Assembly: GCA_016193315.1 (NCBI GenBank)
Contig: JACPSJ010000001.1
Coordinates: 599,478 to 663,477, forward strand
DNA: 64,000 nucleotides
Reading direction: 5' to 3'
Source: Candidatus Kerfeldbacteria bacterium
GTDB taxonomy: Bacteria; Patescibacteriota; Patescibacteriia; SBBC01; CAIJZX01
Below, piece after piece: positions 7,767 through 61,000 of the stretch. The notes under the pieces were generated by a model, which saw only the letters and a program-made list of their open reading frames with translations, was not told where the DNA came from and did not search any database. Each line of letters opens with the position of its first letter. Within the stretch, counting starts at the first letter, position 1. A program made the position numbers and the translations under genes.

Positions 7767-8444
7767 CTACTTCTTCAGGATGATGTAGGTTGTACTACCA
7801 ACCCAGAAGACTGAAAAAACGACGGAAATTAGTGGGTTCACACTAATTTCGTAAAAGACCGCCCACAGATTGAGACTTATCGCCGGGAGGCCGCCTAAGA
7901 CAACTCCCAACAAGAAAATTCGGGCGTTATTCTTCTGGAATCCACCAACAACTCTTTGTTTGTAAAACAACAATACTACGCTTGCGAAATAAAATGCTGA
8001 AACCACAAGTTGGTAGACCCCGAACATCGGGCCGGGTATCGGCCACCCGGCGATATTCGAGTTGACATTGTAGCCGCTGAAAATAGTTGATGTGAAAATA
8101 GCAACCAGGCTCAGAATGAAGGCCGGAAAATAAAGGAGTACTGCGTGTAGCTTGTCAAAAGTGAACGTTTTGTACGGGAAAAGAATAGCGAGGTGAACTA
8201 AACTTGTAACAATCACTGCTCCTGAAACAAACAAAACTTTAAGGAAGAGAGTAACCGTCGCGCTTGGGTCAACATAAGACGTGAGGCCGTTGAGAATTGC
8301 CCATGCGGCTGTACTAAACGCCAACAACGCCATCACTTTCCGAATCTCCTGTTTTTGGTGAGTGACCCAAAAGAACACCGCAAGGGCTAATTCCCCCGTG
8401 CCAACGAGGTAGGTAAGACCCAAGAGAATATTTTTCCCAATCAT
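7767..8444 (-). CDS. Stand-alone 7TM membrane module, paralog of the kinase N-terminal sensor (copy 1)
   Basis: Seven predicted TM helices and no soluble domain. It shares motifs with the HK N-terminus: 'HLAILFPYK' vs 'HFGLIFPWG', 'LLYFPAFIL' vs 'ALYFPTLLF', 'ARIFLLGVVLGG' vs 'VRYLLLGLAISA'. It ends '...TYIILKK', where the HK continues 'YAIVRHRLLD'. The ATG at 8444 makes an ATGA overlap with the copy-2 stop; the ORF extends to 8462. Confidence 0.7.
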   Translation of the reverse strand: MIGKNILLGLTYLVGTGELALAVFFWVTHQKQEIRKVMALLAFSTAAWAILNGLTSYVDPSATVTLFLKVLFVSGAVIVTSLVHLAILFPYKTFTFDKLHAVLLYFPAFILSLVAIFTSTIFSGYNVNSNIAGWPIPGPMFGVYQLVVSAFYFASVVLLFYKQRVVGGFQKNNARIFLLGVVLGGLPAISLNLWAVFYEISVNPLISVVFSVFWVGSTTYIILKK

Positions 8445-9112
8445 GGTTGTATAATGATCCATGTTACTAGCCCTAACCAGACTCCGCTCAGTACAGGAGC
8501 AATCAGGGTCGCATAACTAACTTGGAAACCAAAATTAAAAACACTGAAAATCAAACCGGGAACGCCAGGAATCAGGATTGCGCTAAGAAGTTTTTTTAAA
8601 TGACGGTGGTGCACCCCATCGCTACGTCGGATTTTTTGAATTAATAAACCGACCGAGGTAAGAAGGGCCAGCGTAAAGAAAATGATGTACAAGGAATACA
8701 AATCACCAGGAATAATCTGTCCCGTCGTATCAGGGGTAAGTTTGTACCCTTGGATAAAATCATCAGAGATGAAAAAGCTATAACTTAGCATGGCCGCGGG
8801 CAGGTAGAGAAGTATGCGGTGAAATCCGTCGAGGCGAATGGTGGGAAATGGAAAAAGTATGACAACATGCACCAGGGCAGTGATAAGAAAAAAGCTCGCA
8901 ATAAAAACCCAGGGTAACAGCAGGTCAACTAAATGGGAAGGTTCGCGGTAGGATGTAAGAGCATTCAATACGACCCATGCGCCAATGAAGAATGCAAGAA
9001 ATGCCATCACCTTCCTAATCTCCTGTTTTTGGTGAGTGACCCAAAAGAAAACTGCAAGGATTAACTCCCCTATCCCAACAAGGTACGTTGCTGTTAGCAG
9101 GATCGTTTTCAT
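8441..9112 (-). CDS. Stand-alone 7TM membrane module (copy 2)
   Basis: The N-terminal 60 aa are nearly identical to copy 1, including an 18-aa identical run 'AVFFWVTHQKQEIRKVMA'. It has 7 TM and the FP motif 'ILFPFP'. There are ATGA overlaps at both ends; the ORF extends to 9148. Confidence 0.7.
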   Translation of the reverse strand: MKTILLTATYLVGIGELILAVFFWVTHQKQEIRKVMAFLAFFIGAWVVLNALTSYREPSHLVDLLLPWVFIASFFLITALVHVVILFPFPTIRLDGFHRILLYLPAAMLSYSFFISDDFIQGYKLTPDTTGQIIPGDLYSLYIIFFTLALLTSVGLLIQKIRRSDGVHHRHLKKLLSAILIPGVPGLIFSVFNFGFQVSYATLIAPVLSGVWLGLVTWIIIQP

Positions 9113-9765
9113 TTCTTCAAAATAATGTAGCTCGTGAAGCCAAGCCAAATGGCCGAAAACAGAGAGCCGACATAGCCGATTTTACTGATGGCGACCAGGG
9201 GGTAAATGATGTCAAAAACAACCGACACGAGGAGGGACAGTCCGATACCGACTAAAATCATTTTTAGCATCCAGCGATGTTGCCCATCGCTTTTTGTAAA
9301 ACGGTAGACCAAGTTAGCAAGGGCCCAAATCCAGTAAGCAAAGAAAAAAATGAGCATGAACCAGAAATATGGGCCCGGCGAAGTCTGGTATCCTTTGATA
9401 TAGTCAATGACTCCGTTACCGCTCAAAAAAATACTAGTCCAGAAGATACCCGGGACAAAAACTGCTAACGGCCAAATAACATAAGGCAGGATTTCATTAA
9501 CCTTCTTTCTTGGTAATGGGAAGGTCCAACTGAACGGTAAAATGAAAATAGCGGTCATCAGGCCACCGAGCCAACCCATGCGCTCAGCGATGTAAAAGTT
9601 ATTTTGCATGTATCCCAAACCGTTAGAGGCAACGTAAAAGGAAATACCTAACGCAAACAACCCATACCACATGGTCGCCTGACTGCGTTGATAGCTAAAA
9701 ATCAGGTACAAGCCGAGGATGAATTCGGCCAAAGCGATAAGGAGAAGAATTATTCCAATGATCAT
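9109..9765 (-). CDS. Stand-alone 7TM membrane module (copy 3)
   Basis: 7 TM with 'FSWTFPLP' and 'WMLKMILVGIGLSL', ending '...TSYIILKK'. Its start overlaps the copy-4 stop in an ATGA. Confidence 0.7.
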   Translation of the reverse strand: MIIGIILLLIALAEFILGLYLIFSYQRSQATMWYGLFALGISFYVASNGLGYMQNNFYIAERMGWLGGLMTAIFILPFSWTFPLPRKKVNEILPYVIWPLAVFVPGIFWTSIFLSGNGVIDYIKGYQTSPGPYFWFMLIFFFAYWIWALANLVYRFTKSDGQHRWMLKMILVGIGLSLLVSVVFDIIYPLVAISKIGYVGSLFSAIWLGFTSYIILKK

Positions 9766-13243: not shown

Positions 13244-14092
13244 CTACTGGTAGGCGAGATCCAGAGCGATGTAGTTGTCCAGGTCGCCGTAACCGGATCC
13301 AGACGTACTCACCAAGTGACGTCCGATGATTTCGTTGTGCGCCCCCCCAACGAAGTTGCTGTCGACGACTTCCACAGCCACCACTCGGCCCTGTGCATCC
13401 CACGTCACGATGTGGACCACAATTGCTGTGTGACCGTCCTTGACTTTTGACTGGATCACATCTCCGACTTGGACTTGCGACACTGGTTTTGTCATCTCGC
13501 GCCGACCACTGTTGTAGTCGTCGATGTACTTCTGGTAAGGATACAACATCCGTGGGTTACTGGGTGGGCCGCCGTAGAAAGTCTAACTCCGGTAGAGAAT
13601 CAGGTTCGCGAAGTAACGACATTGCCCACCTCTGCCGTAGAACGTCGCCAACTCCCCGTACGGACCGGACCTGGTCCATTTCTCCTTCATGTGGGTGTAG
13701 TAGCCCATGTTGGAGAAGAAGCTGGGGAATCGATCATCCGTCCAGAGTGATGAGTTGTCGCCGTAATGGTTCTTCAGCTTCGTGTACGCGGCGACATCGC
13801 TGAGCAAATACTTCCAGTCACTGACGTAGTTGCCGCCTATCTTGTTCCGCGACGAACCCGAAGCGGTATTACTCAGCGCGTAGAAGCACTCCAGTTGGAT
13901 GGCTTTCCTAGAGTCAGTAGCTAGTCGCTCCGGTACCGCCCTAGGCTTCCTGAACCCACTGGATGAATCCGGCCACACCACCGGAGCCAGCAGACGTTCT
14001 CGGCTCCGACTGCAGCTGTCCAGTAGGGCTGGACTGACAACCAGATACGCGGCGCAGGCCAGCCGCACGAACTGCCGTCGATTCAGACTCAT
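13244..14092 (-). pseudogene. Tat-signal CHAP-domain amidase/peptidase interrupted by an in-frame TAG stop
   Basis: The 13583..14092 part (Tat motif 'SLNRRQFVRLA', then '...GRGGQCRYFANLILYRS') and the 13244..13549 part ('...VQVGDVIQ...GHTAIVV...VVDSNFVGG...IGRH') are in the same frame. They are separated only by a TAG at 13583-13585. Together they align colinearly with the intact paralog at 16241..17074. TAG is a normal stop elsewhere in the window, for example at the dapF-like and hutH ends. Confidence 0.6.
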
Positions 14093-14345
14093 GGCACAAC
14101 TCCTTTCTTGGTTACGGCTGGATGCCCAAACGTGTGTGGACAGAATGCCGCGGTAGATGCTGCAGTATTTGATCACCTCTCGGTTGTAAGGAGCTGGCGA
14201 ACCGGTTGTCTCGATATGAGACAACGCAAAACCAGGCCTTGGGCCAATGGTTCTCACCAGCATGGCGAACGAAAAAACCGGAGGCCCAACTCTGAAGCTG
14301 CTCCGTAGGGAGAACTTCAGAACCAAGCCACCGGTTCTGACTGAA
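14093..14345 (-). promoter_or_regulatory. Conserved ~250-nt structured 5' leader with a terminal inverted repeat (copy A); candidate cis-regulatory RNA
   Basis: Near-identical to 17075..17360 upstream of the paralogous CHAP gene. It contains the IR 'cttcagaacc-N8-ggttctga(ct)gaag', the hairpin 'tttgccc-N15-gggcaaa' and a long-range 'cggagg/cctccg' pairing. Confidence 0.4.
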
Positions 14346-14494
14346 GTGTAGTCCTGCCTATCTGAACGTCAAGTGGACAAGTGGATATCCTAACGCAAAC
14401 GCTTGACCCGAATAAACAAATATGTTATTTTTCTGGGTTCTTTGAAGTCTGTCTACTCGCTCGTAACTTACAACCCAAACTGGAGAGGTGATCC

Positions 14495-16240: not shown

Positions 16241-17074
16241 TCAGTACCACCGGCCCTGACCGGAAAACATTTTCCAGGTGTTACCGATGGCGGTACCGCT
16301 GACGTTGTGGCGGCCGATCATCTCGTAGCCGAGATAGTTTGAATCGACCACGGTGATTCCACTTCCGTAGTTCCGGACACAAACCGCCACGTGCTGGCGA
16401 CGCCTACCGGATCCGTCGACGTAGTTGTAGAAGACCAGGTCGCAGGGTTGGGCGTTGATCGCCGGCGGGAAGGAATACTTGGACGGATCCTTCGAGCCCC
16501 AGTTCCAGGACAGCCTGTACATCCCGGCGGTCGCCCGGTAAATATCCATAGCTACGTACGAAACGCACTGGCATCCGCGGCCGATCCCACTCCGAACACC
16601 GTATGGGTCGGCACTGAGGTAACTCACCCAGTACTCGATCGTATTCTGCGGGTACGGCATGAGATTGGGCGTCGTAATCGCGCAGCAACCACAGACAGGC
16701 GGGATGTCATTCGACACACATGTCTGGTAGGTGTTAAGTGCGAATCGAAGACCGTTCCCGTTCGCATCAGCGATCTTGGACAACCAGTTCCAATTCGACT
16801 TCGTCCCGTCTCCTCCGGGCCCGTTCGGATCGTCCCCTTTGCGTAGCCAATCGCGGTTGATCGAATACCAGCACTCGTTGCGGACCCGGTAACGGCTGGA
16901 TCCGATCGACAAGGGGGATGCCCCCGGCTTTCTGATCCCGCCCGGGCCTGACGGCTCCAGGTCGGTCCCGATCAGCCGCTCCGCAACGCGACCGCAGTTT
17001 TCCAAGGCGCCGGCAAGCGACACCACGGCTGCCGTCCCGGCCAGCCGCACGAACTGCCGTCGATTCAGACTCAT
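16241..17074 (-). CDS. Tat-secreted CHAP-domain cell-wall amidase/peptidase
   Basis: Start 'MSLNRRQFVRLAGTAAVVSLAG' has a twin-arginine motif, preceded by the SD 'aaggag'. The C-terminal CHAP domain is 'GCQCVSYV...CDLVFY...HVAVCV...VVDSNYLGYEMIGRH'. The ORF track extends it to 17266 through non-native R-rich sequence. Confidence 0.75.
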   Translation of the reverse strand: MSLNRRQFVRLAGTAAVVSLAGALENCGRVAERLIGTDLEPSGPGGIRKPGASPLSIGSSRYRVRNECWYSINRDWLRKGDDPNGPGGDGTKSNWNWLSKIADANGNGLRFALNTYQTCVSNDIPPVCGCCAITTPNLMPYPQNTIEYWVSYLSADPYGVRSGIGRGCQCVSYVAMDIYRATAGMYRLSWNWGSKDPSKYSFPPAINAQPCDLVFYNYVDGSGRRRQHVAVCVRNYGSGITVVDSNYLGYEMIGRHNVSGTAIGNTWKMFSGQGRWY

Positions 17075-17360
17075 GGCACAACTCCTTTCTGTGGTTGCGG
17101 CTGGTTGCCCCTTGGATAGTGGACACGATGCCGCGGAGGTCGAACTGCCGTTTTTGACACCTTCCCATGTTGTAAGGTGCTGGCGAACCCGTTGCCTCCG
17201 TTCGAGACAACACAAAGCAAGCCTGACGCGTGGTTGGATTTGCCCAAACCACGCCCCGTTGGGCAAACGGTCCTCACCAGCATGGCGAACGCAAAAACCG
17301 GAGGCCCGACGCTGAAGTCCCTTGTGGAGAACTTCAGAACCAAGCCACCGGTTCTGAAGT
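17075..17360 (-). promoter_or_regulatory. Conserved ~250-nt structured 5' leader with a terminal inverted repeat (copy B)
   Basis: Duplicate of 14093..14345. It has the perfect IR 'cttcagaacc aagccacc ggttctgaag' at 17331-17358 and a T5 run ('ccggttttt' on the coding strand) 30 nt downstream. Confidence 0.4.
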
Positions 17361-17418
17361 TATTGTAAACCTATGTGTGAGCCGGTCAAGTGGAAAACCC
17401 AGCTGGTGACGACTTTTA

Positions 17419-23036: not shown

Positions 23037-23122
23037 GGGCAGTTAGCGAAGTGGTCAAACGCGGCTGACTGTAAATCAGCTGGCTCCGGCCTTCGTAGGT
23101 TCGAATCCTACACTGCCCACCA
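23037..23122 (+). tRNA. tRNA-Tyr (anticodon GTA), type II with a long variable arm, CCA encoded
   Basis: Acceptor 'gggcagt'/'actgccc'; anticodon stem 'gctga/tcagc' with loop 'ctGTAaa'; 14-nt variable arm; T-arm 'gtagg TTCGAAT cctac'; discriminator A; 3' CCA. Confidence 0.85.
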
Positions 23123-23247: not shown

Positions 23248-23700
23248 ATGGGCACCACCAAAAAGACCACCAAGCCGCCCAAGGTATTCTCTGACTTTGA
23301 ATTGTCGGCGATGCGGGAACGCGGCCACGAGCTCCGGGCGGAGGCACGAGTGAAAAAGAACAAAACCGAGGGAGAACGTATCGCCCTCGCGAGAATTGCG
23401 CAGATGAAAGGACTTGACCAGGCAATGGCTAAGCGAATCCATACCATCATCACCACCAACGCACCCAGCCTCAGGCCCAAAACCTGGTACGGAATGCCGG
23501 CATACGCCAACAAGGACGGAAAGGTTGTCTGCTTTTTTCAAGACGCGAAGAAATTCAAAGCCAGATACGCGACGCTGGGTTTTAGCGACCTGGCCAAACT
23601 TGATGACGGTGCGATGTGGCCAACTTCATTCGCGCTGAAGAAACTGACCCCGGCCGACGAGAAAAAGATCGCCGCGCTCGTGAAGAAAGCGGTAAGCTAA
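23248..23700 (+). CDS. Hypothetical protein (possibly DUF1801/YdhG-like)
   Basis: 150 aa, lysine-rich, with a 'WYGMPAY' motif. Its last 36 nt are duplicated at 24472..24507. Confidence 0.45.
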
Positions 23701-23744
23701 GGGTTAAGATTGCCGCCACGGTAACGTCTTCGAGCATTGCTCAC

Positions 23745-24425
23745 ATGAGACTGAAGAAAAAAGTTGTTGTGATCACCGGGGGGAGCAAAGGCTTGGGCAA
23801 GGCCTTAGCTTCTGAATTCGTAAAAGAAGGATCAGTCGTAGTCATTAGCGCCCGAAATAGGAAAGAGCTTTGGAATACTGCTCGTGAATGCAGGGCAATC
23901 CCTTTTGTGGCCGACATAACGAAAGAACAAAATATCATGAGCCTTGCGAAGTTTGTGAAAAAAAGGTTGGGCCGCATTGATGTGTGGGTAAATAATGCTG
24001 GCGTGACCATCCCACACTCCGACATTGACGGTATTACGTCTGAGGCGGCGCACAACGTTATGGAGGTTAATTTCTTTGGTACGTTTTACGGCCTACAAGC
24101 AGTCATTCCAATCATGAAAAAACAACATCACGGAACTATTGTTAACATTATTTCCATGAGCGCTTTGGTTGGGCGCCCTCGTTCATTGATGTACTCATCG
24201 AGCAAATGGGCAGCACGAGGATTGACGGAAGGAATTCGGATGGCGCTGAAGCCTAAACGCATTTCAATCATTGCCGTTCATCCAGGTGGCATGAAGACTA
24301 CTATCTTCGGCAAGCATTTACCGCAAGGGTATGACGATTGGATGGAGCCCGATTTTGTGGCTAAGAAGATAATTCAAAATCTCAAGCGCGCTAAACCCCG
24401 CGAAGAAATTGTTATTCATAGGTGA
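23745..24425 (+). CDS. Short-chain dehydrogenase/reductase (SDR)
   Basis: 'VVVITGGSKGLGKALA' (TGxxxGxG), 'NNAG' and the catalytic 'YSSSK' (YxxxK). It is visibly AT-richer than its surroundings. The ORF track starts at 23616, but the first plausible ATG is 23745. Confidence 0.8.
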   Translation: MRLKKKVVVITGGSKGLGKALASEFVKEGSVVVISARNRKELWNTARECRAIPFVADITKEQNIMSLAKFVKKRLGRIDVWVNNAGVTIPHSDIDGITSEAAHNVMEVNFFGTFYGLQAVIPIMKKQHHGTIVNIISMSALVGRPRSLMYSSSKWAARGLTEGIRMALKPKRISIIAVHPGGMKTTIFGKHLPQGYDDWMEPDFVAKKIIQNLKRAKPREEIVIHR

Positions 24426-24471
24426 TATTTCAACTTGTGACGTCTATCAAAGCCTCAGGATTTTCTTCAGA

Positions 24472-24507
24472 GAAAAAGATCGCCGCGCTCGTAAAGAAAG
24501 CGGTGAG
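24472..24507 (+). repeat. 36-nt direct repeat duplicating the 3' end of 23248..23700 (partner at 23662..23697)
   Basis: 'gaaaaagatcgccgcgctcgt(a/g)aagaaagcggt(g/a)ag' occurs at both places. The two copies bracket the low-GC SDR gene. Confidence 0.7.
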
Positions 24508-24508
24508 T

Positions 24509-24590
24509 CCCGTTAGAAATCTACTGACGTAGTGGGAAAATAGTTCAGACATCGAGATTTTATAGTAGGGAATTTCTAACGGGATGAGCT
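24509..24590. repeat. Inverted-repeat element 'tcccgttagaaat ... atttctaacggga' (13-bp arms, ~55-nt spacer), copy 1
   Basis: Perfect 13-bp arms visible in the sequence. A second copy with 11-bp arms is at 48192..48271. Confidence 0.6.
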
Positions 24591-25006
24591 GCGGACGAAA
24601 CTCGCACTGGGACCCGCCCGAGGCGGCTTCTGTGTTTCATACCATACTTTCCTTGGGTCCGCTCGCCGGCAACTCCGGCACCTGGAAATCCTCGGTTCCC
24701 AACAACCAGGTTCCCCGCCCTTCGGCGGGGTGAACTCCGACAGACGCAGGCGGTCCATCGCCTGAACCTCTACTAAGAGCACTGGTATAGGCTAAGAGTC
24801 ATAGTGACAATCGTGAAGCTCCACGGCTTCAGCCTCCTCCGCCGAAGTAGCTTCGGCTGCGAAGGCCGGGCATCCACGGGCTAACTCCCGTGGCTTTCTG
24901 CTGAGCCACGTATTACGTGGCAGAGGCGGGTAAAAACCCAAGCTTAGAAACCTCTCCATCGTGGTAAGGGGTTGACTTCGGGAAAACTTCGGTTTTTAAT
25001 AGGAGT

Positions 25007-25357
25007 ATGTCCGACCGAGCGCAGCGCTACCAACCCACTCCCCTGTCTCTACCGACCACGGTACCGGAGAAAATCCGCCAGCCGGTGCGGGTGGCGGTAG
25101 ACTTTCCGGCGAAGCCACGGCGGGAGCCGGGCAAGCCGGACCCGGCTACGCCGGGTGCCGGACCGAAAATCAAGCCCTTGGCCTTTGTCTGGTCTGGCCG
25201 GAAATACCTCATCAAAAAGGTGAACCTGGTCTACAAGCGCCAGCACGGCGACCGCTGGCAGTGGTGCTTTGCGGTTTCGGATGAGGCGAATAGCTATGTC
25301 TTGGTCTACGACCCCGAAGAACTGACGTGGGTTTTGGAGGAGATATATGAGTTGTAG
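25007..25357 (+). CDS. Hypothetical protein immediately upstream of the dinB repeat array
   Basis: 116 aa: an N-terminal Pro/Arg-rich low-complexity region and a C-terminal 'FVWSGRKYLIKKVNLVYKRQHGDRWQWCFAVSDEANSYVLVYDPEELTWVLEEI' domain. A GGAG lies close to the ATG. Confidence 0.45.
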   Translation: MSDRAQRYQPTPLSLPTTVPEKIRQPVRVAVDFPAKPRREPGKPDPATPGAGPKIKPLAFVWSGRKYLIKKVNLVYKRQHGDRWQWCFAVSDEANSYVLVYDPEELTWVLEEIYEL

Positions 25358-25435
25358 GACGCGTCTCTCGCTTCCAGAGACCCTCTCACTGCGCTCAGGT
25401 GAGACGGCGACGGGCGCGGGGCCAGCATGAATTCT

Positions 25436-25667
25436 ATGCTACCACGTATCATTCTCCGTCTCGACATGAACAGTTACTTCGCTTCGGTGAAGCAGTCCCG
25501 CAGTCCTCGTTGCTACGGTCCTCGGGTGCGGGACTAATGGGATTCTCTATGTTGCCGCGTATCATATTACACCTCGACATGAACAGCTACTTTGCTTCGG
25601 TTGAACAGCCCCGCACCGCTCCCCTTCGCCAAGCTCAGGGTCGGGTGCGGGATTAGTCAAAAAATCT
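25436..25667 (+). repeat. Two extra tandem copies of the dinB 5' end (60 nt each), each followed by a GC-rich hairpin, upstream of the real dinB start
   Basis: Copy 1 starts at 25436, copy 2 at 25549, and the real gene at 25668. All encode 'MLPRIIL(R/H)LDMNSYFASV(K/E)Q'. The mini-ORFs end '...(P/G)RVRD*' inside the hairpins 'gtcccgca...tgcgggac' and 'cccgcacc...ggtgcggg'. Confidence 0.75.
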
Positions 25668-26987
25668 ATGCTGCCCCGTATCATTTTGCACCTCGACATG
25701 AACAGCTACTTCGCTTCGGTTGAACAACAAGCCAATCCTTTTCTGCGCGGTAAACCGGTCGGCGTCGTAGCCACCATGACCCCGAACGGCTGCGTCATCG
25801 CTTCATCCATCGAGGCCAAAGCCAAAGGCATCAAAACCGGCGTCCGGGTGAAAGAAGCGCGGGCCATTGATCCGAACGTCATCCTCATCCCGAATGACAG
25901 CAGCAAGTATCGCTCGTGCACCGAAGGGATTTTTCGGATATTGCGGCAATATACCGAGGACATTGAAATGTACTCGATTGACGAAGCCTTTCTCAACCTG
26001 ACCGGTTTCGTCCCGAGCTACAGCCAAGCAGAAACCATGGCCGCGGACATCCGCCAGCGCATCCAAGCCGAAGTCGGTGACTGGCTGCGCTGCTCGATGG
26101 GCATTGCGCCGACGCGTTGGTTGGCCAAGTTCGGCGGCGACACCGCGCCCAAAGGCGCCACGCTCATCGTCCATCGCGGCAACCTCCATCAGACGCTTGA
26201 CCCGCGCCCGCTGACCGACGCCTGGGGCATCGCCCACAACCTTGAACGGCGTCTGAATCTCCTCAATCTCTACTCCCTCGGTGATCTCCGCCGCTACCCG
26301 GTCATCAACCTGATGCAGGTGTTCGGCATTAATGGGTACGTCCTATGGGCTAATGTTAACGGCATTGAAATCCCTGGTTTGCGCACGCCGGAGCAACCAA
26401 AATCGATCGGCCATTCGCATGTCTTCAGCCGTAAAGCCGAATCGCTCGACTATCCGAAGGCGGTGCTGGCAAAACTCTGCGAGAAAGCTGGCCGCCGCCT
26501 CCGCCGGCTTGATCTCGAAGCCTACGGCGTGTGGCTGTCGTATGGTGTGCCGGACTGGGTGGCGGCCCGAATCGGCCGAGCTGGCGGGGGCGGCGGGAAA
26601 AAGCTGCCGTATGCACTCTATGACACCCACGATATCTTTCGCCATTGCTGGCAGATGTTGCTTGATGACTTACCGAAACGCGCGCTGCCGAACTTTTTGG
26701 CGATGGGGTTGTTTTACTTAAAACCCAGATCGCGGCAACTCCGACTCTGGAGCTCCTTAGCCCCCCCTATAGACAGAGCGACATCCCGCTCCTGGCGGAG
26801 CCTTAGCGACGACATGGAGCGGGGCCCGGCCTTGGCGCAAGCTTTGGACACACTCAACGACCAGTTTGGGGATTTTACCGTGGCGCGGGGCAGTTTCTGG
26901 GGCTTGAACGAAAAAGACGCGCCGGATCGGGTGGGGTTTCGGAAGACGGTGACCTACGATCCAGCAGCTGACCGCTACGTCTGGTGA
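25668..26987 (+). CDS. dinB: DNA polymerase IV (Y-family translesion polymerase)
   Basis: 'ILHLDMNSYFASVEQ' catalytic N-terminus, a palm 'SIDEAFLNLTG' and a little-finger/DUF4113-like C-terminus 'ALDTLNDQFGDFTVARGSF'. Confidence 0.85.
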   Translation: MLPRIILHLDMNSYFASVEQQANPFLRGKPVGVVATMTPNGCVIASSIEAKAKGIKTGVRVKEARAIDPNVILIPNDSSKYRSCTEGIFRILRQYTEDIEMYSIDEAFLNLTGFVPSYSQAETMAADIRQRIQAEVGDWLRCSMGIAPTRWLAKFGGDTAPKGATLIVHRGNLHQTLDPRPLTDAWGIAHNLERRLNLLNLYSLGDLRRYPVINLMQVFGINGYVLWANVNGIEIPGLRTPEQPKSIGHSHVFSRKAESLDYPKAVLAKLCEKAGRRLRRLDLEAYGVWLSYGVPDWVAARIGRAGGGGGKKLPYALYDTHDIFRHCWQMLLDDLPKRALPNFLAMGLFYLKPRSRQLRLWSSLAPPIDRATSRSWRSLSDDMERGPALAQALDTLNDQFGDFTVARGSFWGLNEKDAPDRVGFRKTVTYDPAADRYVW

Positions 26988-43255: not shown

Positions 43256-43458
43256 ACCTAAGTAACCGCGCCGCGATCATGTTTGAGTGAAGTCCCGCCC
43301 TGAGCATGTCGAAGGGCGGGATGAGCGAGTTATCGCGGCGCTCCAGACAAGCCACCGGCTTGTCTGGAGTCTTTCGGTTCCTTTTCTGATCAAGCAGAAA
43401 AGGAACAAATGAAACAATTCTCCACCTATTCGGTACTTGGATCCGGAGCAACCACACT

Positions 43459-58036: not shown

Positions 58037-61000
58037 ATGGCTATTCGAATCAACCTCATTGTCCGGCCGTCGTTTAAAGAACGGCTGTGGAAGGTGCTCA
58101 ACGTCATCGTCGGCGTGTCAACGATCATGAACGTAACTTTCCTGGGGTCAATCCTGGCCGCCCCGCGGATCGCCAAGGCCGACGCTCCCTCGCCGGCCAG
58201 CACCATTACCGCCACCTATAATCCCACTGGCGGCGCTTTGTCAGTCTCGGGTCAGTACACCTGGACCGCTTGCGATCCGGACAACGATGCTCGGATTGTG
58301 GGCTTCGCCCTGTTTATTGATGGTTCGGACGCCGATGCGAACGTCGGCACGCCACTGGCCACGACCACTGAGGCGCTCGACGGTACTGGGATGCACCTGG
58401 CCGATGCTGGGCAGCCATGTCATTCGGCCACCGGTAGCTGGTCCGACAACAGCCATAACGCCACCACGAATCCCATCCTGACCACTGCCCCGACCCGGGT
58501 CTGTGTCGTTACCTACGATGTCCGGACTGGCGTCAGCACCGGCAGTCATTCGCAAATCGGGAGCGGCAGCAACCGGAATACGGACAACTCATATGAGAAA
58601 AATAACGACCAGTACTCCAGCGTCTCATGTACGTCCGTGCCTGTTCCAAGCGTTCCCAACCCGCCACTCGGCCAGTCGTGTGGTCTCGATATTGGCCTGG
58701 TGGTCGATCGATCGGAAAGCATTGACAGCGGTGAGATGTCACAGATGAAAACCGCACTGACGAACTTCGCGAACGCCTTTACCGGCACCCCGACTGTCTT
58801 CAGCCTGACTTCCTTCGCCACCGGTTCAACCTTGAACCGAGCCTTCTCGCGTACCCCGACTCAGGCGGCCGGTGACATCGGCACGGACATTCCCTCGGTC
58901 GGCAGCGGTTACACCAACTGGGATAGCGGTTTGGCACGCAGTTCCGCTTCGTTCGACCCACGTCCGGCGAAAGCCAACCTGATTGTCATTGCCACTGACG
59001 GCAGCCCGAATCGCTGGGGCTACCCGACCACCGACCCGACCTTCGATTGGGACACCGGGTTGACCCGCGCGATTGAGCGCGCTAATGCGATCAAGACGGC
59101 CGGCACGCGGATCGTGGTGGTCGGCATTGGCGAGGACACGACCGACCCGGCGACGCCGACTCAGAAGCTGGAAAAAATGAAGGCTATCAGTGGCTCCAGC
59201 GTGGCCACTACTCCCGGGGCGATCACGACCGCCACCGACGTCATCAAAGTCACTGATTTCAGCGGCATCGGCACCGCCCTCTCGTCCTTAGCCGGAGAAC
59301 TCTGCGGCGGCAAGATCCTAGTCCAGAAACAATTCGATACAGACGGCGATGGCCAAGCTGATCTGACCGGCGACACTGCTGATCCGCTACTAGCTGGATA
59401 TTCCTTCGACGTCAACGGTGCCCCGTCCAATCCGGCGCCGCAAACTACGGGTGGCACCGGATCGCTGGCGTTCGATGTTTTGAACGGCATCTACAGTGTC
59501 GTTGAGACACAGCTCCCACCAAACACCCGCGTCCTGGACGCCCAGTGCGTCAACGGGCAGCAGGCGGTTGGGGCCTTCGATCCGAACAGTCGAACTGTTT
59601 CCGGTTTGACCATGGGGACGGATGATACGGTCAGCTGCACGTTCCTGAATGGCTACCGCCGCGGTTCACTGAAGGTAACGAAAATCGTTGATAGCGGTAC
59701 CGCTTCAGCCGATGATTTCGCGTTGACCATCGCCCCGGACCCAAACCACGTCGGCTCCGTCCATCCGATCAATGGCATCTACGTTTTTGACAGTTTGGAT
59801 CCCGGCCCGTACACGGTGTCCGAACAGACCGTCACCGGTTACCATCAGGTGGCATCGACCTGCGACAAAGTCCAGGTCTCGGCTGGCCAGCAAGCTGAGT
59901 GCGCCATCCACAATGCGCGCGATGCCGGCGAATTAACGGTCATCAAACAGGTGGTCAACAACAACGGCGGGAACAATTCGTCCGGCGACTTCACCATGCA
60001 TATCAAACAAGGCGGTGTCGATGCGGTCACACCGTTTGCCGGGAGCGCCAGCGGTGTAACGAAATCGCTGCCCGCCGGCACGTACACCGTTAGTGAAACT
60101 GGCCTCCCGGCTGGCTACCAACAAACCAGCGTAGTCTGCGACGGCCAGTCGACCAACACGGTCATCGTCACCAACGACGACAAACACACCTGCACCATCA
60201 CCAATGATGATGTGGCGTCCTCGATCACCCTCCAGAAGATGGTTATCAACAATAATGGTGGGGCGGCCGGTCCGAACGATTTCGGGCTGACCGTCGGCGG
60301 CACAGCCGTCACGTCCGGGCAAACTCTGAGCGTCAACGCCAACATTCCCATCGCCTTGAACGAGGCTGGTCGGAATGGGTACCAGTTTGTCTCGCTTAGT
60401 GGCGACGCCAAGTGCCCGAAAACCCTTGGCGGGACGGTCACGCTCAGCGAGGGTGAACATATTGTCTGTACTATCACCAACGACGACATTGCCCCCCGCT
60501 TGACCGTTATCAAGCACGTTATCAATAACAACGGCGGGAACAACGTCGCCGGAGATTTCACCATCTTCGTCAACGGCACCGACGTCTCTGACCCCGACTT
60601 CCCGGGCCGTGAGACTGGTACCACGGTCACCCTCGACCAAGGAGCCTATGCCGTCAACGAATCTGGTCCAAGCGGCTACACCATGAGTTTGTCCGCCCAG
60701 TGTACCGGCACGATTGACATTGGTCAGCACAAGACTTGCACGGTCACGAATAACGACCGGGGGGCGACGGTCACCCTGACTAAACGAGTCACCAATGACA
60801 ACGGCGGCACCGCCGGACCGAACGACTTTGGACTCCGGATCGGTGGTCAGGGAGTTAATTCTGGGCAGACCTTGGCCGTGGCCGCCAACGCACCAATCAG
60901 CATTAGTGAAACCGGACGTGTCGGCTACCAGTTTGTCTCCATTAGCGGCGATACGAAATGCCCGCCGGTACTCGGCGGTACGGTCACGCTCAGCGAAGGC

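What the first reader, a model, noticed from the sequence alone, without database searches (positions are those of the whole stretch)
25360..25730. Three tandem copies of the dinB 5' end that differ almost only by synonymous substitutions, each followed by a GC-rich hairpin
Upstream of the real dinB start (25668) there are two extra ~113-119-nt units, starting at 25436 and 25549. Each begins with ATG plus 19 codons encoding 'MLPRIIL(R/H)LDMNSYFASV(K/E)Q' and continues into a short variable tail ending '(P/G)RVRD*'. These tails lie within the imperfect inverted repeats 'gtcccgca...tgcgggac' and 'cccgcacc...ggtgcggg'. Copy 2 differs from the real 5' end at 6 of 60 nt, all synonymous. Copy 1 differs at 8 synonymous sites and has only 2 amino-acid changes. 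The fragments therefore diverged under protein-coding constraint. They are not decayed slippage duplicates. Possible explanations, all inference: successive site-specific integrations of elements that target the dinB 5' end and carry their own replacement 5' end, with the hairpins as att-site relics; expressed mini-ORFs or leader peptides that mimic the DinB N-terminus for translational or regulatory coupling; or a recombination substrate for N-terminal switching. The small upstream gene 25007..25357 of unknown function belongs to the same unit.
Basis: partly seen in the sequence, partly recalled or inferred. Interest (0 to 1): 0.7.

Follow-up and report, generated by a model that had tools for sequence, protein, structure and literature searches.

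The report
Stacked old dinB starts with hairpins
In front of an error-prone DNA polymerase gene (dinB) of an uncultured CPR bacterium sit several stranded copies of the gene's own start region, each closed by a conserved hairpin and a stop codon; the same layout recurs in at least 14 related lineages and has not been described before.

Summary
The window has three dinB 5' copies (25436, 25549, 25668) and a fourth, decayed unit (25347-25435). An independent assembly reproduces the array exactly. Comparable arrays occur upstream of dinB in at least 14 Kerfeldbacteria-like CPR lineages. They break after codon 9/10 (LD|MNSYF) or codon 20 (VEQ|QANP). Close relatives have empty sites.

Across 10 proximal units, 67 codon differences are synonymous and 6 are not; neutral decay of an in-place duplicate predicts about 54 non-synonymous.

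The hairpin is neither a dispersed repeat nor an Rfam family, and its stem covaries. In the short-fragment type its right arm is dinB's own P-F-L-R-G-K codons, so it is not a foreign att relic. No recombinase lies nearby.

Each mini-ORF stops 0-12 nt before the next ATG. In the window this makes an unbroken chain from the DUF6504-like upstream gene to dinB. The attached 5' end is A/T-shifted at third positions only in array-bearing genes.

Best reading (inferred): successive renewals of the dinB start region stranded older starts, which persist as a translational relay. How renewal happens, and whether the proximal peptide has a function, remain unresolved.

The parts
24972..25006 (+). Promoter-like region and ribosome-binding site of the operon. 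TTGACT (24972-24977), a 17-nt spacer containing TCGG-N8-TTCGG, TTTAAT (24995-25000), and AGGAG (25001-25005).
   Evidence: Read. The same TTGACTTCGG...TTCGG..TATAAT/TATACT block precedes the small gene in L082, L083, L087, L094 and L166. The strict consensus scan did not call it, so promoter function is inferred.
25007..25357 (+). Small upstream gene (116 aa), a weak DUF6504 match and the first cistron of the operon.
   Evidence: ORF. There are 40 homologues, all 79-121 aa and mostly unnamed. 24 of 26 match PF20114 weakly, best E 1e-5, with the window protein at E 0.017, below Pfam's cutoff. It sits directly upstream of dinB in relatives.
25347..25430 (+). Unit 0: the oldest stranded start region, now the unrecognisable ORF0 (MSCRTRLSLPETLSLRSGETATGAGPA). 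Its start lies inside the end of the small gene. Its TGA stop overlaps the ATG at 25427.
   Evidence: GGGCGCGGGG-CCAGC-ATGAATTCT (25412-25435) matches the hairpin right arm plus linker of L143, L166, L004 and L089. The fold is no more stable than shuffles (z = +0.38).
25427..25537 (+). Unit 1 (ORF1, 36 aa). It comprises the MNS extension, dinB codons 1-20 (25436-25495, with H8R and E19K), the hairpin (25496-25533) and a TAA stop (25535-25537).
   Evidence: E19 is invariant in the DinB family alignment, so unit 1 has begun to decay.
25537..25656 (+). Unit 2 (ORF2, 39 aa). Its ATG shares one base with unit 1's TAA. It comprises dinB codons 1-20 (25549-25608, no amino-acid change), the hairpin (25609-25652) and a TAG stop (25654-25656), 11 nt before the dinB ATG.
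   Evidence: At the nucleotide level it is closest to the real start (47/51, against a family background of 41-44). The exact peptide is present in public data on three contigs.
25668..26987 (+). dinB, a Y-family DNA polymerase IV (439 aa), carrying the working copy of the start region.
   Evidence: Pfam IMS 3e-40 and IMS_C 3e-8. NCBIfam DNA polymerase IV models reach 1e-57 but fall below their equivalog cutoffs. The closest homologues are Candidatus Kerfeldbacteria at 77% identity or less.

Best explanation
The array is the layered leader of a two-gene operon: a DUF6504-like gene followed by dinB.

SHOWN
- Each unit is a former dinB start region. It has a few bases of the upstream junction, an ATG and the first 9-20 codons.
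- Each unit runs into a GC-rich hairpin (left arm YCCCGCM, right arm KGCGGGR) and a stop codon 0-12 nt from the next ATG.
- In the short-fragment type, the right arm and its flanks are dinB's own codons 24-29. There the unit is a longer, internally decayed partial copy of dinB. The left arm is a short new insertion complementary to the right arm.
- Units are graded by age: unit 2 is intact, unit 1 has two replacements including the invariant E19, and unit 0 is unrecognisable.

INFERRED
- An initial partial duplication of the junction plus about 29 codons was followed by further renewals. I favour unequal recombination between diverged dinB alleles of related strains after DNA uptake. Each renewal put a fresh 5' end on the gene and pushed the previous one upstream.
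- The copies differ almost only at synonymous sites for two reasons. Each copy was a working dinB 5' end until it was displaced. The working copy has also been recoded towards A/T at third positions.
- The stranded starts keep the native initiation signals. They are translated as short ORFs that pass ribosomes on by termination and reinitiation.
- The hairpin just upstream of each restart site hinders independent ribosome loading. Synthesis of the mutagenic polymerase therefore stays low and tied to translation of the upstream cistron.
For: - Array and statistics.
- Recurrence in at least 14 lineages with two breakpoints.
- Empty sites in close relatives. L094 has the compact junction TAA-TTTTTCT-ATG and L081 has overlapping genes.
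- The hairpin is not dispersed and matches no Rfam family.
- Stem covariation is 0.284 against 0.110 for shuffles (0 of 500), and it collapses when the register is slid. The second hairpin of the long inserts has two compensatory pairs.
- The right arm equals dinB codons 24-29 in L143 (16/17 nt, 0 of 1000 shuffles) and L004 (10/10 nt, 17 of 1000). L166 shows the same by eye.
- Chains of ORFs with ATGA or TAATG overlaps or 10-12 nt gaps occur in the window, L087, L089, L143, L004, L168, L167, L085 and L101.
- The fragment carries the clade-typical N-terminus while the attached end is atypical in L101 and L089.
- Ser13 switches codon family between the fragments and the gene in L087, and between the orthologous fragments of L085 and L167.
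- The attached 5' end is A/T-shifted at third positions only in array-bearing genes (mean difference -0.119 against +0.014, p = 6e-4). The shift is bounded roughly by the breakpoint.
- Units decay: L085 against L167, L111 against L002, L164, and window unit 0.
Against: - The renewal mechanism is not observed directly.
- The test that the attached end is foreign is weak in the one pair with close empty-site relatives (L089 against L099 and L094; P = 0.22 and 0.025).
- In the window the three copies have the same GC3, and L101 shows the opposite GC3 pattern.
- For the long-fragment type, which includes the window, the hairpin tails show no significant similarity to downstream dinB. Their origin from dinB codons rests only on sharing arms with the short-fragment type.
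- Proximal fragments share lineage-specific residues with their own gene while being near saturation at synonymous sites (L087 unit 2, L166, L101). That would also fit long-term purifying selection on the peptide.
- L101 has a stranded fragment but no stable hairpin and no small gene upstream.
- Translation, reinitiation and the effect of the hairpin are all untested.
Confidence: 0.45

Rival explanations
1. A selected leader peptide. The proximal mini-ORF is kept by purifying selection because its product, or its nascent chain, must match the DinB N-terminus. It would then work with the hairpin as a dedicated cis-regulatory device for dinB, for example through co-translational sensing, a decoy function or stalling.
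For: - Proximal units have 67 synonymous and 6 non-synonymous codon differences, with synonymous sites near saturation in L101 (13 of 17 codons) and L087 (10 of 20).
- Proximal fragments share lineage-specific residues with their own gene: MTPRIILHID in L166, MERIILHID in L004, MMPRVILHID in L087.
- All four mini-ORFs found in public protein data keep PRIILHLDMNSYFASVEQ intact.
- The hairpin stem covaries.
- Distal units are the ones that decay.
Against: - Orthologous fragments are not conserved where they can be compared. L111 against L002 shows 4 replacements plus a lost start codon and only 1 synonymous change. L085 against L167 shows 2 replacements in 10 codons, and L085 has lost codons 1-10 and the left arm.
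- The fragment length differs between types (9 or 20 codons), and L143's fragment is diverged (MRVIFYID).
- Ser13 codon-family switches are hard to reach under strict constraint.
- No known mechanism requires a leader peptide to copy the N-terminus of the regulated protein.
Confidence: 0.2
2. A site-specific mobile module. A small element made of the hairpin, a spacer and its own copy of the dinB 5' end inserts at two hot spots in the most conserved dinB codons, restoring the gene each time. It could be driven in trans by an integrase or by a homing endonuclease that cuts uninterrupted alleles.
For: - There are two precise breakpoints, both in the codons for the most conserved N-terminal residues, and they recur in lineages whose DinB is only 41-80% identical.
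- The hairpin and linker sequences are more conserved than synonymous sites across those lineages.
- Distribution is patchy, with empty sites in 88-89% identical relatives.
- The A/T shift of the attached end stops near the breakpoint.
- The attached N-terminus is atypical in L101 and L089.
- A GIY-YIG pseudogene sits at the small-gene/dinB junction in L082.
- dusA-targeting islands are a precedent for insertion into a gene's 5' end with restoration of the gene (PMC4482086).
Against: - No integrase, transposase or intact nuclease gene lies next to any array.
- No larger version of the element was found.
- The hairpin has no copy outside dinB leaders in 64 kb of the window or in the flanks of about 170 loci.
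- In the short-fragment type the supposed element is dinB's own decayed sequence up to codon 29.
- Both the fragment and the attached end usually carry the host lineage's own residues.
- L082, which has the GIY-YIG remnant, has no array.
Confidence: 0.15
3. An ordinary tandem duplication by replication slippage, now decaying neutrally and with no role.
For: The array is a head-to-tail repeat. Units do decay in some lineages.
Against: - The neutral-decay null expects about 54.5 non-synonymous codon differences and 6 are seen (0 of 2000 simulations).
- The same layout recurs in at least 14 lineages.
- The hairpin covaries.
- Stop codons consistently sit next to the following start.
- The attached copy has a distinct composition.
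Confidence: 0.03
4. An assembly artefact, in which strain variants were collapsed or expanded into a false repeat.
For: The window comes from a metagenome-derived genome, and the repeats are short.
Against: - The identical array appears in an independent assembly of run SRR12113425.
- Comparable arrays appear in assemblies from NCBI, JGI, ENA and Logan made with different assemblers.
- The spacers between the copies are unique, structured sequence.
Confidence: 0.01

Closest known systems
Genomic islands and prophages that integrate into the 5' end of dusA and restore it (PMC4482086)
   Same: A conserved gene is interrupted near its 5' end. A new 5' end is supplied, so the gene stays intact and the old 5' piece is left upstream as a direct repeat.
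   Different: Here there is no integrase, no cargo and no element body. The piece between the copies is only 45-60 nt, or about 100 nt in one type. In at least one type that piece is partly the gene's own decayed sequence. Units are also stacked in tandem.
Structure-enforced translational coupling and termination-reinitiation in bacterial operons, for example rpmI-rplT, MS2 coat-replicase and short ORFs in integron attI sites (own knowledge; the integron case is reviewed in PMC8876359, which I listed but did not read)
   Same: The stop of an upstream ORF lies at or within a few bases of the next start. A stable hairpin sits just upstream of the restart site. The working start lacks a strong Shine-Dalgarno sequence.
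   Different: The upstream ORFs are copies of the regulated gene's own N-terminus. There are up to three in series, and coupling here is inferred from sequence only.
The phage T4 gene 60 coding gap with the mobA cassette (own knowledge)
   Same: A short hairpin-containing insertion in a conserved coding region of a DNA-metabolism gene is tolerated through an unusual translational arrangement, and it may be linked to a mobile nuclease.
   Different: There are no matching take-off and landing codons and no stop codon directly after the break. The distance is 105-119 nt, and the downstream copy has its own ATG. Hopping is neither needed nor supported.
Leader-peptide attenuators such as erm, cat and the amino-acid operons (own knowledge)
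   Same: A short translated leader ORF is followed by a hairpin in front of the regulated gene.
   Different: No alternative pairings, no U-tract terminator and no sequestered start codon were found. The leader copies the N-terminus of the regulated protein.
Dispersed palindromic elements such as REP, MITEs and Rickettsia palindromic elements (own knowledge)
   Same: These are GC-rich imperfect palindromes, and some lie inside coding regions.
   Different: The hairpin is not dispersed. Its only copies are in dinB leaders.

Membership tests
Y-family DNA polymerase IV (the gene itself) | IMS (palm/fingers) and IMS_C (little finger) domains, and an N-terminal catalytic motif | tested here: met
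   PF00817 at 3e-40 and PF11799 at 3e-8. The LDMNSYFASVEQ motif is conserved. NCBIfam DNA polymerase IV models match but below their equivalog cutoffs.
DUF6504 (the small upstream gene) | A match to PF20114 above Pfam's gathering score | tested here: inconclusive
   The window protein scores E 0.017 and 15.8 bits, against a cutoff of 24.2. 24 of 26 homologues match weakly, best E 1e-5.
Integrative element inserted in a gene's 5' end (dusA type) | An integrase gene and an element body between the two copies of the target | tested here: not met
   Only 53-59 nt lie between the copies. No recombinase family appears among neighbouring genes in the window or in related loci.
Integrative element inserted in a gene's 5' end (dusA type) | The attached 5' end is of foreign origin and the stranded fragment is native | tested here: inconclusive
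   Suggestive results come from N-termini, Ser13 codon families and GC3. The direct divergence test is weak.
Translationally coupled ORFs (termination-reinitiation) | The upstream stop codon overlaps the downstream start or lies within about 12 nt of it | tested here: met
   Window: ATGA at 25427-25430, TAATG at 25535-25539, and an 11-nt gap before 25668. ATGA overlaps or 10-12 nt gaps occur in eight other lineages.
Translationally coupled ORFs (termination-reinitiation) | Downstream translation depends on upstream translation | not testable with these tools
   This needs reporter fusions or ribosome profiling.
Leader-peptide transcription attenuator | An intrinsic terminator and a mutually exclusive antiterminator pairing | tested here: not met
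   No terminator-like site lies in the array. No alternative pairing is evident in the fold.
Dispersed palindromic repeat (REP or MITE) | Many copies scattered through the genome | tested here: not met
   CCCGCA..TGCGGG occurs only in the array within the window. The CCCGCC..GGCGGG variant has one unrelated hit. In the fetched loci the related hits lie at dinB starts.
Integron cassette array (attC sites) | attC with RYYYAAC...GTTRRRY core sites, and an intI gene | tested here: not met
   The hairpin ends are YCCCGCM and KGCGGGR. No integrase gene is nearby.
Known structured RNA family (Rfam 15) | A covariance-model match | tested here: not met
   Only tRNA-Tyr was found in the window at 22.5-27.5 kb. 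Nothing was found at the arrays of seven loci at E up to 5.
Programmed translational bypass (T4 gene 60 type) | Identical take-off and landing codons, a stop codon directly after take-off, and a gap of about 50 nt | tested here: not met
   In the window the codons are CAG and CAA. No stop follows the break, the gaps are 113-119 nt, and the downstream copy has its own ATG.
Homing-endonuclease cassette | A nuclease gene next to the insertion, which lies in a conserved target sequence | tested here: inconclusive
   The breakpoints do lie in the most conserved codons, but no nuclease gene adjoins any array. L082 has a 72-aa GIY-YIG remnant at the junction and no array.

The most novel reading that the evidence does not exclude
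The mini-ORF next to dinB is a functional leader peptide that has to copy the N-terminus of DinB. Together with the covarying hairpin it would form a new kind of cis-regulatory leader for an error-prone polymerase. For example, a factor that recognises the nascent DinB N-terminus would act on the leader and the gene alike, setting how many ribosomes reach dinB. The device would be built by duplicating the gene's own start region and rebuilt repeatedly in CPR bacteria.
Probability: 0.18. Interest if true: 0.85.

Novelty: new variant of a known kind. Interest (0 to 1): 0.6.

Why it matters
If the best reading holds, this shows how a gene's start region can be replaced repeatedly without loss of expression. 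Each stranded start would be reused as a short ORF that passes ribosomes on, which gives a readable layered record of past events in front of one gene.

The gene involved is the error-prone polymerase of bacteria with tiny genomes, whose gene regulation is almost unknown. The layout therefore points to a way of keeping a mutagenic enzyme at a low level tied to its partner protein.

It also gives annotators a concrete warning. Short ORFs that look like DinB N-termini, and dinB genes called from internal ATGs, are by-products of this layout.

If instead the peptide itself is under selection, or a dedicated enzyme inserts the module, either would be a new mechanism.

Tried and rejected
- **Rfam scans.** I scanned the window region and seven array-bearing loci and found nothing at the arrays.
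- **Hairpin as a dispersed repeat.** Rejected. The hits in L022, L161 and L162 are an ordinary terminator of the upstream gene.
- **Long-fragment hairpin tails as decayed downstream dinB.** Not significant. The idea holds only for the short-fragment type.
- **In-frame fusion of units to DinB in unusually long database homologues.** None found.
- **P0026 and P0042, called from MNSYF..., as possible large insertions at the breakpoint.** P0026 (L164) is a mis-called start with a decayed unit upstream. P0042 (L166) is a normal short-fragment array.
- **Divergence test of fragment against attached end, using L089 and its empty-site relatives.** The first attempt was spoiled by indels. Redone on an alignment, it gave the predicted direction but was weak.
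- **Nearest-neighbour search of each fragment among all real 5' ends.** Only W2-W3 (47/51) and L101 fragment-L099 (46/51) rise above the background.
- **Consensus promoter and terminator scan of the array.** Nothing found.
- **Literature searches.** I searched for dinB leaders, CPR insertions, LexA boxes in Patescibacteria, DUF6504 and N-terminus-mimicking leader peptides, and found no precedent.
- **Translational hopping.** Considered and rejected on sequence grounds.
Full report
**1. The observation**

Tandem Repeats Finder reports a single array at 25433-25726 with period 119 and score 322, the only long-period tandem repeat in the 64-kb window. The repeat finder gives three copies spaced 113 and 119 nt.

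The three 60-nt copies start at 25436, 25549 and 25668. They encode MLPRIILRLDMNSYFASVKQ, MLPRIILHLDMNSYFASVEQ and MLPRIILHLDMNSYFASVEQ. Copy 2 differs from the real start at 6 nt, all synonymous. Copy 1 differs at 11 nt: six synonymous codons and two replaced codons, H8R and E19K. None of 5000 random-mutation trials gave so few replacements.

The spacers fold into stable hairpins of -20.8 and -24.4 kcal/mol.

An independent Logan assembly of run SRR12113425 carries the identical array, 100% over 531 nt.

**2. The organism and the operon**

The gene at 25668-26987 is a Y-family DNA polymerase with IMS and IMS_C domains. Its best homologues, at 77% identity or less, come from Candidatus Kerfeldbacteria and other Patescibacteria (CPR).

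The small gene at 25007-25357 has 40 homologues, all 79-121 aa. 24 of 26 of them match Pfam DUF6504 weakly.

In relatives this small gene sits directly upstream of dinB:
- In L081 the two genes overlap.
- In L094 they are separated only by TAA-TTTTTCT-ATG.
- In L082 and L083, other material has been inserted at this junction, including a 72-aa GIY-YIG remnant.

A conserved block precedes the small gene in several lineages: TTGACT, then 17 nt containing TCGG...TTCGG, then TATAAT or a close variant.

**3. The array is recurrent**

No extra copy of the DinB N-terminal motif was found in 80 dinB loci from GTDB species representatives using a strict pattern. A metagenome scan, a looser scan for short fragments, and a whole-library HMMER search with the window's mini-ORF found the same layout in many relatives:
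- L087 has three copies.
- L101, L167, L168, L085 and the 906-nt contig of P0125 break after ...SYFASVEQ, like the window.
- L004, L142/L143, L166 and L164/L165 have a 9-10-codon fragment that breaks after ...LH(L/I)D.
- L089, L111 and L002/L093/L096 have the same break, followed by a two-hairpin insert of about 100 nt.

That makes at least 14 lineages whose DinB proteins are 41-84% identical to one another.

Close relatives without arrays exist. L099 and L094 are 88-89% identical to L089.

Both breakpoints lie inside the most conserved N-terminal stretch of the protein. S13, Y14, F15, A16, V18, E19, Q20 and Q21 are invariant.

**4. Anatomy of a unit**

All the hairpins start with YCCCGCM directly after the fragment and end with KGCGGGR. 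In the window this motif occurs only in the array. The CCCGCC variant has one unrelated hit. In the roughly 170 fetched loci, the related hits lie at dinB starts. No Rfam family matches.

On nine hairpins the stem has five invariant G-C pairs. The next pair is A-U in six hairpins and C-G in three. The covariation score is 0.284 against 0.110 for shuffles (0 of 500 reach it), and it collapses when the register is slid. The second hairpin of the long inserts shows two compensatory pairs between L089/L111 and L002.

For the short-fragment type, the right arm with its flanks is dinB's own sequence:
- In L143, CGTTTCTGCGGGGCAAG matches its own codons 24-29 (P-F-L-R-G-K) at 16 of 17 nt (0 of 1000 shuffles).
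- In L004, 10 of 10 nt match (17 of 1000 shuffles).
- L166 shows the same by eye.

In those arrays the unit is therefore a longer, internally deleted copy of dinB reaching about codon 29. The left arm is a short insertion complementary to the L-R-G codons.

The linker that follows (C-ATGAAYTCNT-ATG) resembles the last codons of the small gene (TAT GAR ... stop). It is shared by L143, L166, L004, L089, L111 and by window 25422-25438. This reveals a fourth, oldest unit in the window, ORF0 at 25347-25430.

For the long-fragment type, which includes the window, the tails show no significant similarity to downstream dinB. Their derivation from dinB rests only on sharing the same arms.

**5. Reading frames**

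In the window the frames form an unbroken chain:
- The small gene ends at 25357.
- ORF0 (25347-25430) starts inside the end of the small gene.
- ORF1 starts at 25427, with an ATGA overlap.
- ORF2 starts at 25537, with a TAATG overlap.
- ORF2 stops at 25656, 11 nt before the dinB ATG.

ATGA overlaps or gaps of 10-12 nt recur in L087, L089, L143, L004, L168, L167, L085 and L101. The real start in the window is preceded by AAAAAATCT, with no GGAGG-like sequence at the usual distance. The small gene does have AGGAG. No consensus promoter or terminator lies inside the array.

This is the layout expected for termination-reinitiation, with a hairpin that hinders independent ribosome loading. That it works this way is inference.

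**6. Why the differences are synonymous**

Over ten proximal units there are 67 synonymous and 6 non-synonymous codon differences. The null model is an in-place duplicate whose fragment drifts neutrally while the gene accepts only synonymous changes. It predicts about 54.5 non-synonymous differences (0 of 2000 simulations). Simple decay is therefore excluded.

Two explanations remain. Either the fragments are under purifying selection, or both copies were working dinB 5' ends of diverged alleles until recently.

Evidence for the second explanation:
- **N-termini.** L101's fragment has the N-terminus of its closest relatives (MQRVILHLD), while the attached end (MSLPRVILHLD) is atypical. L089's fragment (MQRVVLHLD) equals that of L099 and L094, while the attached end has M5.
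- **Ser13 codon families.** The invariant Ser13 is TCG in both L087 fragments and in the gene of its nearest relative, L164. It is AGT in L087's own gene. The orthologous fragments of L085 and L167 use TCA and AGC.
- **Decay where orthologues can be compared.** L111 against L002 shows four replacements and a lost start codon against one synonymous change. L085 against L167 shows 8/30 nt with two replacements, against 4/45 nt, all synonymous, in the real ends.
- **Gradient with distance in the window.** Unit 2 is intact, unit 1 has lost the invariant E19, and unit 0 is unrecognisable.
- **Composition.** The attached 5' end is A/T-shifted at third positions relative to its gene body only in array-bearing genes (mean difference -0.119, against +0.014 in 108 array-less genes; p = 6e-4).
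- **Extent of the shift.** It is confined to codons 1-9 where the break is at codon 9/10. It extends weakly to codon 20 where the break is at codon 20.

The composition result fits either an imported 5' end or recoding of the working start for easier initiation. Either would inflate synonymous divergence.

Evidence against, or neutral:
- The direct divergence test in L089 is weak.
- The window's three copies have equal GC3, and L101 shows the reverse pattern.
- Proximal fragments often share lineage-specific residues with their own gene.

**7. Best explanation and rivals**

I favour a layered leader made of stranded dinB start regions, at confidence 0.45. A partial duplication of the junction plus about 29 codons was followed by further renewals, most simply by unequal recombination between diverged alleles. 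Each renewal stranded the previous start. The stranded starts are kept open, and end next to the following ATG, because dinB translation depends on ribosomes handed down the chain. The hairpin is maintained as part of that arrangement.

The rivals are:
- A leader peptide under selection for matching the DinB N-terminus (0.20).
It is weakened by the lack of any recombinase or nuclease gene next to an array, the absence of any copy outside dinB leaders, and the dinB origin of the right arm.
- Neutral slippage duplication (0.03).
- Assembly artefact (0.01).

**8. Comparison with known systems and novelty**

The closest known cases are:
- Islands that integrate into the 5' end of dusA and restore it (PMC4482086).
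- Structure-enforced translational coupling in operons.
- The hairpin-containing coding gap of T4 gene 60.

None of these combines stacked copies of a gene's own start region, a gene-derived covarying hairpin, and a stop-start relay. Searches of the held literature found no description of this layout. I rate it a new variant of a known kind, with moderate to high interest. The mechanism remains inferred.

Noticed in passing
window 23659-23696 and 24470-24507, flanking 23700-24470: A short-chain dehydrogenase gene (23616/23746-24425) sits between two 38-nt copies of the 3' end of the DUF1801 gene ([13 protein letters not shown]). Its GC content is 0.44-0.49, against 0.55-0.62 around it. The two copies differ at two third-codon positions. 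The first copy ends the gene with TAA, and the second reads on as ...SPVRNLLT*. This looks like a one-gene cassette that brought its own replacement gene end, the same theme as at dinB, 1.2 kb away.
   Followed up: partly
window 23037-23122: tRNA-Tyr (GTA) lies immediately upstream of the DUF1801/SDR/dinB region. This stretch may be a hot spot for insertions.
   Followed up: no
window 24530-25000: About 470 nt have no convincing ORF between the SDR cassette relic and the operon promoter. The stretch contains two terminator-like hairpins (24614-24626 and 24874-24893).
   Followed up: no
window 24972-25000; also L082, L083, L087, L094, L166: The spacer of the promoter-like block before the small gene contains a conserved direct repeat (TCGG-N7/8-TTCGG). 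It is retained across lineages with about 70% identical DinB and could be an operator, for example for an SOS-type repressor. No published CPR LexA motif was found for comparison.
   Followed up: partly
window 25415-25426 and 25668-25678: CGGGGCCAGCAT in unit 0 is complementary, with one bulged base, to the working dinB start ATGCTGCCCCG. It is not complementary to the starts of units 1 and 2. The minimum-free-energy fold of the whole leader contains long-range pairing spanning these regions. I did not see this in the other lineages I checked by eye.
   Followed up: partly
L082 4619-4837: A 72-aa GIY-YIG-like ORF lies exactly between the small gene and dinB. It appears cut short by a stop codon, because the reading frame continues as ...TRKKKIALIESRNPEWNDL. 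It is followed by GC-rich hairpins and a GCTTCGCTTCGCTC motif that also forms the loops of the L004 and L143 hairpins.
   Followed up: partly
L164 7913-7945 and L168 1-34: Perfect palindromes centred on TTTAAA (ACGCAGGCGCGGG TTTAAA CCCGCGCCTGCGT and GGTGCGGG TTTAAA CCCGCACC) lie upstream of the proximal unit. They are built from the same arm sequences as the hairpins and are probably remains of older units.
   Followed up: no
window 14057-14380 and 17039-17397: A segment of about 340 nt is repeated 3 kb apart, including 52 nt at 100% identity and the rest at 76-90%. It spans gene starts on the minus strand.
   Followed up: no
window 7767-9148: Two adjacent minus-strand ORFs of 231 and 235 aa share a 140-nt stretch at 74% identity. 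They are probably tandem paralogues.
   Followed up: no
window 59900-62400: A long coding region is built from repeats with 276- and 546-nt periods and recurring CTITNDD-like motifs. It is a repeat-domain protein, possibly a surface protein.
   Followed up: no
window 43294-43320: A lone palindrome, CCCGCCCTGAGCATGTCGAAGGGCGGG. Its CTGAGC...TCGAAGG core resembles the loop of the window's unit 2 hairpin (CTTCGCCAAGCTCAGGG) and the L101 tail (TTCGACTTCGCTCAGGG).
   Followed up: no
database proteins P0026 and P0042; window ORF2 = P0121: Gene callers have deposited the mini-ORFs as separate small proteins, and have started some dinB genes at the internal Met of DMNSYF. These are annotation by-products of the array layout.
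   Followed up: yes
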